From Okamejei kenojei (lineage: Eukaryota), in contig CM069140.1 of the NCBI GenBank assembly GCA_035221665.1, forward strand, positions 4,898,001-4,962,000: a stretch of DNA of 64,000 nucleotides. The letters run 5' to 3'. The translations under genes were made by a program, and so were the position numbers. The notes beneath the pieces are model-generated. The model saw nothing but the letters and a program-made list of their open reading frames with translations, was not told the DNA's origin and searched no databases. Below, piece by piece: positions 1,648 to 3,884 of the stretch (position 1 is its first letter; every line of letters starts with the position of its first letter).

Positions 1648-1825
1648 CCTTCCCACTCTTGTGAATATCAATGCATCCCAATTTCTCAACTCACCAGATT
1701 TTCTACCCTTGGCCAATCTTAGATCTTGCTTCAGCATCAACCTCCATCTATCACCCTGTTGGCCTTCACCAAGCCCCGTCGATGGCGGTGGGGCCTCGGG
1801 AGCATAGGAGCCGGGGGAGGGGGGT

Positions 1826-2845
1826 AAGCTCGGTGGCGGTGATGGGAGCCTCGGCGGCGGTGATGGGAGCCTTGGCGGGGGTGATGGGAGTCTCGGTGGC
1901 GGTGATGGGAGTCTCGGTGGCGGTGATGGGAGCCTCGGTGGTGATGGGAGTCTTTGGTGGTGATGGGAGTCTTGGTGGTGATGGGAGTCTTGGTGGTGAT
2001 GGGAGTCCTCGGTGGCGATGATGGGAGTCCTGGTGTGGCGGTGATGGGAGTCTCGGTGATGATGGGAGTCTCGGTGGCGGTGATGGGAGTCTCGGTGGCG
2101 GTGATGGGAGTCTTGGTGGTGATGGGAGTCTTGGTGGTGATGGGAGTCTTGGTGGTGATGGGAGTCTTGGTGGTGATGGAGTCATGGTGATGGGAGTCTC
2201 GGTGGCGGTGATGAGAGTCTTGGTGGGGAGTGATGGGAGTCTTGGCGGTGATGAGAGTCTTGGTGGTGATGGGAGCCTCGATGGTGGTGATGGGAGCCTC
2301 GGTGGCGGTGATGGGAGCCTTGGCGGGGGTGATGGGAGCCTCGGCAGCGGTGATGGGAGCCTTGGCGGGGGTGATGGGAGTCTCGGCGGCGGTGATGGGA
2401 GCCTTGGCGGGGGTGATGGGAGCCTCGGTGGGAGCCTTGGCGGGGGTGATGGGAGTCTCGGTGGCGGTGATGGGAGTCTCGGTGGCGGTGATGGGAGTCT
2501 CGGTGGCGGTGATGGGAGTCTCGGTGGTGGTGATGGGAGTCTCGGTGGCGGTGATGGGAGTCTCGGTGGCGGTGATGGGAGTCTCGGTGGCGGTGATGGG
2601 AGTCTCGGTGGCTCGGTGATGGGAGTCTCGGTGGCGGTGATGGGAGTCTCGGTGGCGGTGATGGGAGTCTCGGTGGTGGTGATGGGAGCCTCGGTGGCGG
2701 TGATGGGAGTCTCGGTGGTGGTGATGGGAGTCTCGGCAGCGGTGATGGGAGCCTCGGCAGCGGTGATGGGAGCCTAGGCGGGGGTGATGGGAGCCTCGGC
2801 AGCGGTGATGGGAGCCTTGGCGGGGGTGATGGGAGCCTCGGCGAC
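1826..2845. repeat. G-rich minisatellite, 21-bp unit (GGTGATGGGAGTCTCGGTGGC) with 18-bp variants
   Basis: About 50 tandem units; it generates the spurious [14 protein letters not shown] and PPRLPS ORFs. Confidence 0.95.
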
Positions 2846-3412
2846 GGCAGCTAGTGCCTCGGCGGCAGGTGGGGGGGGGTCTCGCGATCGACTCGCGATT
2901 AACGGTAGATGAACGCGAGAGGGGAGGGGTGGTGGGGAAGAAAATGGCATGGGGGGGATCGCCATGAGGGACAGTGGGAGAACAAAGGGGGACCTAGTGT
3001 GGGGAAGGGATGGGAGGGCATTCTTGTTTACTATCCTCTGCCCAGGGGATAAGGCTGTATTAAGGGCCTGTCCCACTTTCACGATCTAATTCACAACCTT
3101 TTTTACTGCTACACCACCGTGACTTTATATGTCATATGAAGCACAAGAAATAAGAAATATTGGGGTTGGGGCAATTATATAAGAAGGGAAAGTTGCAAAG
3201 TGATATATCTGCACCTTTGTGCTGCCTGAACATTGTATGAAATGTATGGTCTGGCAGCCAAAACATGGGCTAAATAATGACATTGTATTCATACAAGAAT
3301 TGATGACCACCAGAGATGGTCCATGGGCTGTCTACAGTATTAAACCCTGTAGAAAAATCAATCCAAAAACAACAACATAAAGCGATGCATCACTTCTGTC
3401 AACTGCCATTCT

Positions 3413-3466
3413 GGGGTGGGCGTCTGCAACCTTCACGTGGTCCACCCTGTTTCGAGGAATGCAATC
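3413..3466 (+). ncRNA. HDV-like ribozyme, degenerate (catalytic C changed to G)
   Basis: P1 GGGGUGG/CCACCCU, P3 ACC/GGU and L3 UUCACGU are retained. P2 is weakened (GUCUGCA/UGCAAUC), and J4/2 reads GGAA rather than CGAA (position 3456). Confidence 0.7.
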
Positions 3467-3548
3467 TACCTGGCGTGCACAAACAGAAGGTCAAACAGAA
3501 CAAGTTGTCTTACAACATTAGGCTGTGCACGCCATATGCAAGAAGAAG
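3413..3548 (+). mobile_element. Short non-autonomous retroposon with 5' HDV-like ribozyme, copy 1
   Basis: 12-bp TSD aactgccattct (3401-3412) / aactggcattct (3549-3560), GAAGAAG tail, and an internal 11-bp stem tggcgtgcaca (3471-3481) / tgtgcacgcca (3524-3534). Confidence 0.85.
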
Positions 3549-3884
3549 AACTGGCATTCTACCTCTACAAGAATGGGAATAAATTTCAATTTCAAAATTG
3601 AATTTTCCTCCAACATTTCCATGGCCTTTTTCTGCTTCCCTGCTTGCAACCGTCCCCGATGATATTGAATTGGCACATGTAACAGGTACAGTGAAATGCT
3701 TGGTTTTGCATGTGGCAAAATCATGTAGCAGACCTCACCGGGGCGGTTTCCAAACATCGCCACGTATTAGCGCTGACAAAGTTAGTAAAGTCTACCGTCT
3801 GCCTGCCTCCATATGGGGACTTTGGTTTACGGGCCGTGCCCAGTTGAGGGTGACGGAGGAGGCCCTGCAGCAGCCTGGGGCTTA

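What the first reader, a model, noticed from the sequence alone, without database searches (positions are those of the whole stretch)
3401..3560. Second copy starts exactly at ribozyme G1 but has lost the catalytic C
Seen: a 12-bp TSD (11/12 identical) ends at 3412 and the element starts at G3413, the first base of P1, as expected if the retrotransposed RNA was the 3' self-cleavage product. P1 varies compatibly between copies (U-A here, U.G in copy 2). The catalytic position is G and P2 is eroded, so this copy is probably dead. Its 3' half folds into an 11-bp stem (3471-3481 with 3524-3534) enclosing a smaller hairpin. Inference: that structure is a candidate LINE RT recognition signal.
Basis: partly seen in the sequence, partly recalled or inferred. 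Interest (0 to 1): 0.7.

Follow-up and report, generated by a model that had tools for sequence, protein, structure and literature searches.

The report
Decayed ribozyme-headed mini-copy of Vingi LINE
This 136-base stretch is one mutated, probably dead copy of an abundant jumping element made of the two ends of a 3-kb retrotransposon; it begins at the predicted cut site of a very small self-cutting RNA fold, and its 3' stem joins the parent's two ends, which are predicted to pair in related elements too.

Summary
Observation confirmed. 3413-3548 is a copy of a family with at least 10,781 genomic hits. It is the 5' ~75 nt and 3' ~45 nt of a 3.04-kb single-ORF endonuclease/RT LINE of Vingi type found in the same genome. 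Of 88 copies with a clear TSD, 60 abut or overlap G1, 28 have 1-4 extra bases, none more. The family keeps the catalytic C (94 of 100). This copy's C-to-G and two broken P2 pairs look like ordinary decay; no excess loss at that site was seen. The 11-bp stem is not a LINE 3'-UTR hairpin: its 5' arm comes from the LINE 5' UTR and its 3' arm from the 3' UTR. In six unrelated Vingi-type elements, own-end pairing ranks 1 of 720 pairings, suggesting a conserved end-to-end clasp. Cleavage, and recognition by RT, are untested. The kind is known (NARTc/RIME, R2 SIDEs). The scan reported this family before on other DNA of this genome, including a hint of end pairing.

The parts
3401..3412 (+). 5' target-site duplication
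   Evidence: 11 of 12 identical to 3549-3560
3413..3466 (+). Minimal HDV/CPEB3-type ribozyme fold without P4 (P1 3413-3419/3442-3448; P2 3422-3428/3460-3466, 2 pairs broken; P3 3429-3431/3439-3441; L3 3432-3438; 7 nt in place of J1.1/4 and P4); damaged in this copy
   Evidence: same head begins the parent LINE
3456..3456 (+). Catalytic position, G here and C in the family
   Evidence: C in 94 of 100 rows, G in 0 (hand count); C in 64 of 68
3467..3485 (+). Continuation of the parent LINE 5' UTR, holding the 5' arm of the stem (3471-3481)
   Evidence: alignment to LINE head L249 over 73 nt
3486..3504 (+). A-rich junction segment not found as such in the LINE; supplies the 5' side of the inner hairpin
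3505..3548 (+). Parent LINE 3' end: last codons, stop codon 3519-3521, 3' arm of the stem (3524-3534), (GAA)n tail 3540-3548
   Evidence: 41 of 45 identical to LINE copy L179
3549..3560 (+). 3' target-site duplication
58312..58435 (-). Second copy of the family: complete ribozyme fold with catalytic C, but the 5' arm of the 3' stem is deleted

Best explanation
This is a decayed copy of a non-autonomous retroelement made of the two ends of a 3-kb Vingi-type LINE, which likely cuts itself out of host read-through RNA with its small HDV-like ribozyme and is then likely reinserted by the LINE's endonuclease/reverse transcriptase. Shown: the two-ended origin, the TSDs, the start at G1, the family's intact fold and this copy's lesions. 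Inferred: cleavage 5' of G1 makes the RNA's start; the LINE protein primes on the (GAA)n tail and joins the 5' end using short microhomology or a few untemplated bases; this copy lost its catalytic C and two P2 pairs after insertion by neutral mutation. Predicted: the segment just after the ribozyme pairs with the segment just before the tail, clasping the RNA's ends; the mini-element keeps this clasp as the 11-bp stem, which is the likely cis signal for the LINE protein.
For: Parent: full-length L264 (3,044 bp, TSD-flanked) has the same head and tail; Pfam RVT_1 and Exo_endo_phos; listed homologues are mostly ~1,000-aa APE+RT proteins with no RNase H domain listed. Junctions: 88 of 115 full-length copies have a clear TSD; offsets 0 (28), +1 to +6 (32), -1 to -4 (28); null 1 in up to 300 mismatched pairs; only 2 of 28 extra-base strings are pure G, so no cap-like G; T at -1 in 49 of 102, p 2e-5. 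Fold: the same descriptor fits copy 2, the LINE head, two sister families and two metagenomic elements with different P1, P2 and P3 sequences (9 of 11 heads tried under the strict rule). Common family variants fall in linkers, loops, CpGs or a G.U/A-U pair. Decay: only 19 of 57 copies keep the whole fold; this copy differs from its subfamily majority at 13 sites spread along its length. End pairing: own-end duplexes rank 1 of 720 assignments at both window sizes; reciprocal best for 6 of 6 at 35/45 nt, 5 of 6 rows at 22/28 nt.
Against: No cleavage assay and no usable RNA reads. The start at G1 fits an internal promoter as well. End pairing is weakest in this family's own LINE copies (shuffle p 0.14 and 0.049); the windows were set after seeing five of the six elements and the larger size after seeing the sixth; in a sliding control the post-ribozyme window was not among the top partners in L264, L246 or L326, nor in L342 and L354 at one of the two window sizes. 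A subfamily with an A.C mismatch in the stem is as abundant (43 against 29 copies). Both arms contain the palindrome GTGCAC. Vingi placement has no tree with named references.
Confidence: 0.8

Rival explanations
1. The G1 start is set by an internal Pol II promoter in the head (as Pr77 of L1Tc), with the ribozyme fold serving mainly as a protective 5' module or as a second route.
For: Pr77 works as both promoter and ribozyme (PMC4035085 passages). An HDV-like fold is reported to protect R2 template 5' ends (PMC13708176 and PMC11331408 passages).
Against: The catalytic C and the following AA are kept in all heads that pass the descriptor across diverged families; no regular extra G at the junction (2 of 28).
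Confidence: 0.12
2. This copy was selected to lose its catalytic C because it would cut a host transcript.
For: C-to-G is rare at this site (0 of 100) and three more changes cluster at 3421-3424. A gene-rich setting is possible (APOBEC4 ORF in the window).
Against: The catalytic CpG decays no faster than the adjacent loop CpG (5 of 44 against 10 of 44); 9 of this copy's 13 differences lie at sites that do not break the ribozyme fold; no host transcript over 3413 was shown.
Confidence: 0.05
3. The 11-bp stem is a by-product (palindromic core, chance) with no role in mobilisation; recognition rests on the 3' UTR sequence and tail alone.
For: Mismatched subfamily equally abundant; copy 2 lacks the 5' arm; sliding controls mixed; 5'-truncated copies were inserted, though from full-length RNA.
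Against: Same position, different sequence pairing in six elements, rank 1 of 720; both deletion breakpoints lie inside the stem, so both arms were kept.
Confidence: 0.3
4. The element is a derivative of, or is mobilised by, the genome's RTE LINE, which also ends in (GAA)n.
For: RTE copies with (GAA)n tails exist.
Against: No blastn match to 20 RTE loci; both ends match the other LINE directly.
Confidence: 0.03

Closest known systems
NARTc / RIME, short derivatives of L1Tc / ingi with the Pr77 HDV-like ribozyme (PMC4035085, passages; PMC5786205, passages and section 23)
   Same: Non-coding element of the two ends of an APE-type LINE, headed by an HDV-like ribozyme whose cut defines +1.
   Different: Vertebrate host, at least 10,000 copies, ~136 bp, no P4, (GAA)n tail, parent without detected RNase H; activity here is predicted, not assayed.
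R2 SIDEs of Drosophila (PMC3414825, passages)
   Same: Internal deletion keeping the 5' ribozyme and the 3' UTR; mobilised in trans.
   Different: R2 is rDNA site-specific; here dispersed insertions with 7-15 bp TSDs; the R2 signal is a structure within the 3' UTR, here the stem needs a 5'-UTR arm.
Internally deleted Vingi derivatives, e.g. of Vingi-1_EE, and Vingi-containing SINEs (PMC5786205, passages and supplement passages)
   Same: Same architecture and probably same clade; the printed 5' end of Vingi-2_Gav closely resembles (by eye) the heads of sister family L141/L146.
   Different: That paper lists six ribozyme-bearing clades and Vingi is not among them; end pairing did not appear in the passages read.
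Minimal (P4-less) HDV-like ribozymes: drz-Mtgn-1 and theta ribozymes (PMC10879173, passages)
   Same: Same nested double pseudoknot without P4; C-to-G motif variants are treated there as inactive.
   Different: Reported as nearly confined to phages and often beside tRNAs; here it heads an animal retroelement.
CPEB3 ribozyme (Rfam RF00622)
   Same: Sister elements in this genome hit RF00622 (42 matches, 30 over the cut-off) and share L3 and J1.1/4 letters with this head.
   Different: This family itself does not hit RF00622; CPEB3 is a single intronic copy with P4.

Membership tests
HDV-like ribozyme | P1, P2, P3, P1.1 nested double pseudoknot | tested here: met
   Met by copy 2 and family heads; this copy keeps P1, P3, P1.1 but only 4 contiguous P2 pairs
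HDV-like ribozyme | Catalytic C in J4/2 | tested here: not met
   This copy has G at 3456; the family meets it (94 of 100)
HDV-like ribozyme | Self-cleavage 5' of G1 | not testable with these tools
   No assay; no raw RNA reads
HDV-like ribozyme (minimal type) | P4 absent | tested here: met
   7 nt between P1 and the catalytic position in this family and family B
Bipartite non-autonomous LINE (SIDE) | 5' end shared with an autonomous-type LINE | tested here: met
Bipartite non-autonomous LINE (SIDE) | 3' end and tail shared with the same LINE | tested here: met
   41 of 45 identity; L264 carries both ends
Bipartite non-autonomous LINE (SIDE) | Dispersed copies with TSDs, no coding capacity | tested here: met
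Bipartite non-autonomous LINE (SIDE) | Mobilised in trans by the parent protein | not testable with these tools
   Inferred from shared ends
Vingi clade (parent LINE) | Compact single ORF with APE and RT, no RNase H (definition from PMC13708176 passage) | tested here: met
   Pfam on broken copies; ~1,000-aa homologues without listed RNase H; single-ORF state read across broken copies
Vingi clade (parent LINE) | RT phylogeny with named Vingi/Ingi references | not testable with these tools
   No named reference protein returned; founding paper not held; indirect anchor only via the Vingi-2_Gav head and protein homology to the sister family
tRNA-derived SINE | tRNA-derived head | tested here: not met
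   Head is the LINE 5' end; no tRNA in window
CPEB3 ribozyme family RF00622 | Rfam gathering score | tested here: not met

The most novel reading that the evidence does not exclude
Vingi-type retrotransposon RNAs are clasped end to end: the strand right after the 5' self-cleaving ribozyme pairs with the strand right before the tail, and this duplex is the signal read by the LINE protein. That would explain why this clade spawns two-ended mini-copies (deletion of the looped-out middle) and why a 136-nt element with a P4-less ribozyme reached over 10,000 copies in a vertebrate.
Probability: 0.45. Interest if true: 0.7.

Novelty: new variant of a known kind. Interest (0 to 1): 0.47.

Why it matters
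The single copy is ordinary decay. The family matters because it puts a P4-less HDV-like fold, described as nearly confined to phages (PMC10879173), at the head of a high-copy animal retroelement, and because the end-to-end pairing gives a testable cis-signal for Vingi elements. Vingi-1 is used for RNA-only gene insertion with donors flanked by both UTRs (PMC13708176 passages), and why only four LINE clades make two-ended derivatives is stated as unknown (PMC5786205).

Tried and rejected
Rfam scans found no ribozyme at either window copy. RTE as parent rejected. No RNA holder listed; the three runs were contigs, probably DNA, and told nothing on starts or exons. Host-gene context unresolved: RasGEF exons lie ~130 kb away on the minus strand and no ARPC5 hit lies near the window, so the recalled human APOBEC4/RGL1 layout could not be carried over and no intronic orientation is claimed. 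Family F (L280-L315) gave 3' ends but no head that I could define, so it was left out of the pairing test; of 80 metagenomic loci only 3 had both usable ends; viral contigs gave none and prokaryotic contigs only partial loci, not analysed. L164 and L279 were dropped from the pairing sets (interrupted or unmatched 3' end). Nine loci were dropped as duplicates before counts. Minimum-energy folding does not see the pseudoknot (z near 0) and was not used for it. PDB search gave only distant RTs. Kojima 2011 and Ruminski 2011 were not held.

Full report
Observation. The window is G000:C10:4898001-4962000 of a 2.76-Gb animal genome; cartilaginous fish is my recalled impression from its repeats, not a tool result. 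The 12-mer at 3401-3412 recurs at 3549-3560 with one mismatch, the element begins at G3413, position 3456 is G, and 3471-3481 is the exact reverse complement of 3524-3534. The only other copy in the window is 58435-58312 on the minus strand. A strict HDV-like descriptor finds only that second copy in the window and nothing in three shuffles; the first copy passes only when the catalytic C is not required and P2 may be 4 bp.

Family. An 18-mer of the ribozyme core has 10,781 exact matches in the genome, the reversed control 0; this is a lower bound and includes LINE heads. I examined 138 loci from four searches and dropped 9 as duplicates. Of 76 copies picked only by their 3' end, 66 start within 4 nt of G1 and 10 are truncated. 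Of 115 full-length copies with a tail, 88 have a clear TSD: 28 abut G1, 32 overlap the G-run by 1-6 nt, 28 have 1-4 extra bases, mostly T or A, only 2 purely G; 27 had no clear TSD under my score. Positions -2 to -10 are close to background and -1 is T in 49 of 102. So nothing upstream of G1 travels with the element. This fits a cleaved, uncapped RNA and does not exclude an internal promoter.

Catalytic C. It is C in 64 of 68 3'-picked copies covering the site and in 94 of the first 100 of 8,990 pattern rows, all six losses being T (hand count). In CpG context it is lost in 5 of 44, the neighbouring loop CpG in 10 of 44 (p 0.26). Only 19 of 57 copies keep every pair and key base, and this copy differs from its subfamily majority at 13 sites along its length. 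The loss here is best read as neutral decay. That C-to-G inactivates is inference: PMC10879173 (passages) treats such variants as inactive motifs and tested C-to-U.

Parent. A pattern asking for a Trp codon upstream of the shared 3' end gave 48 hits, nearly all the end of a long ORF. Walking upstream gave endonuclease and RT frames and 5' ends that begin with the same ribozyme head. L264 is a 3,044-bp copy with both ends and a TSD. This copy aligns to the LINE head over 73 nt and to the LINE tail at 41 of 45 nt. The 120 listed homologues are mostly ~1,000-aa APE+RT proteins without listed RNase H, matching the Vingi description in PMC13708176 (passages). A sister family in the genome is homologous in protein and its head resembles, by eye, the Vingi-2_Gav 5' end printed in the supplement of PMC5786205 (two passages). 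No tree with named references was possible.

Ribozyme fold. Of 11 heads tried under the strict rule, 9 pass (the failures are this copy and L164), with different P1, P2 and P3 sequences across four other lineages. This family and family B have only 7 nt where others have P4. RF00622 hits 42 places in the genome, in sister families, not this one.

The stem. Its 5' arm lies in the LINE-derived 5' UTR and its 3' arm behind the LINE stop codon, about 3 kb apart in the parent. The inner hairpin's 5' side is not in the LINE, where the same 3' strand can pair with a further 5'-UTR stretch. I compared the strand after the ribozyme with the strand before the tail in three genomic families and three metagenomic elements. 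Own-end pairing ranks 1 of 720 assignments at both window sizes, and is reciprocal best in 6 of 6 at 35/45 nt. Against: this family's decayed LINE copies give weak shuffle values (0.14, 0.049); five elements were seen before the windows were set, L326 only after, and the larger windows were chosen after L326; the post-ribozyme window topped the sliding control only in L342 (22/28) and L354 (35/45), not in L264, L246 or L326; a subfamily with a mismatch in the stem is as common. I rate the clasp as real at about 0.65 and as the protein's signal at about 0.45.

Known and new. Two-ended LINE derivatives with HDV-like heads are known (PMC4035085, PMC3414825, PMC6765202 passages; PMC5786205 passages and section 23). 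Searches for Vingi with ribozyme, CPEB3 ribozyme origin, minimal HDV-like in retrotransposons, shark or skate Vingi and end pairing listed no paper on this family or on the clasp; I saw listings for most, subscription journals, Repbase reports, patents and bioRxiv supplements are outside reach, and the founding Vingi paper was not held. Earlier scan notes describe the same family many times and one mentions end pairing; I had noted the pairing idea before seeing that note. They are leads, not support.

Verdict. Observation right; this copy is an ordinary dead member; the family is a new variant of a known kind, with the end-to-end clasp as the testable extra. Interest 0.47.

Noticed in passing
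window 56647-57807 (+): 387-codon frame matching Pfam APOBEC4; the intact-fold second copy lies about 500 bp past it on the opposite strand.
   Followed up: partly
L162-L165: A second short (GAA)n-tailed family with a P4-less head of different sequence; all four heads show T plus four G where P1 needs a G1.
   Followed up: partly
L141-L161: Several sister families headed by near-matches to the CPEB3 ribozyme model, up to 66.8 bits; L146/L246 is a ~3.1-kb LINE with such a head.
   Followed up: partly
L302, L308: Another Vingi-type family whose 5' end looks like a different HDV-like head, without an obvious catalytic C in these two copies.
   Followed up: no
P0001: An intact 1,019-aa ORF from a public assembly is 75% identical to the parent RT stretch, far closer than the ~55% of other hits; a possible active relative.
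   Followed up: no
L225/L261, L211, L196: Mini-copies inserted inside or beside copies of their own parent LINE.
   Followed up: no
L012, L013, L020, L022: Four copies on different contigs sit at the same site of another repeat, either a hot spot or carried along by it.
   Followed up: no
L121-L140: An RTE-type LINE family (DUF6451) that also ends in (GAA)n but shares no sequence with the element.
   Followed up: yes
window 1800-2850: Long GC-rich tandem array of short units giving low-complexity open frames on both strands.
   Followed up: no
G000 RasGEF hits: Many near-identical RasGEF exons on small contigs and a tandem cluster on C4, suggesting an expanded paralogue family.
   Followed up: no
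L416-L418: Vingi-type RT fragments on short contigs of an archaeal metagenome bin, probably eukaryotic contamination.
   Followed up: no
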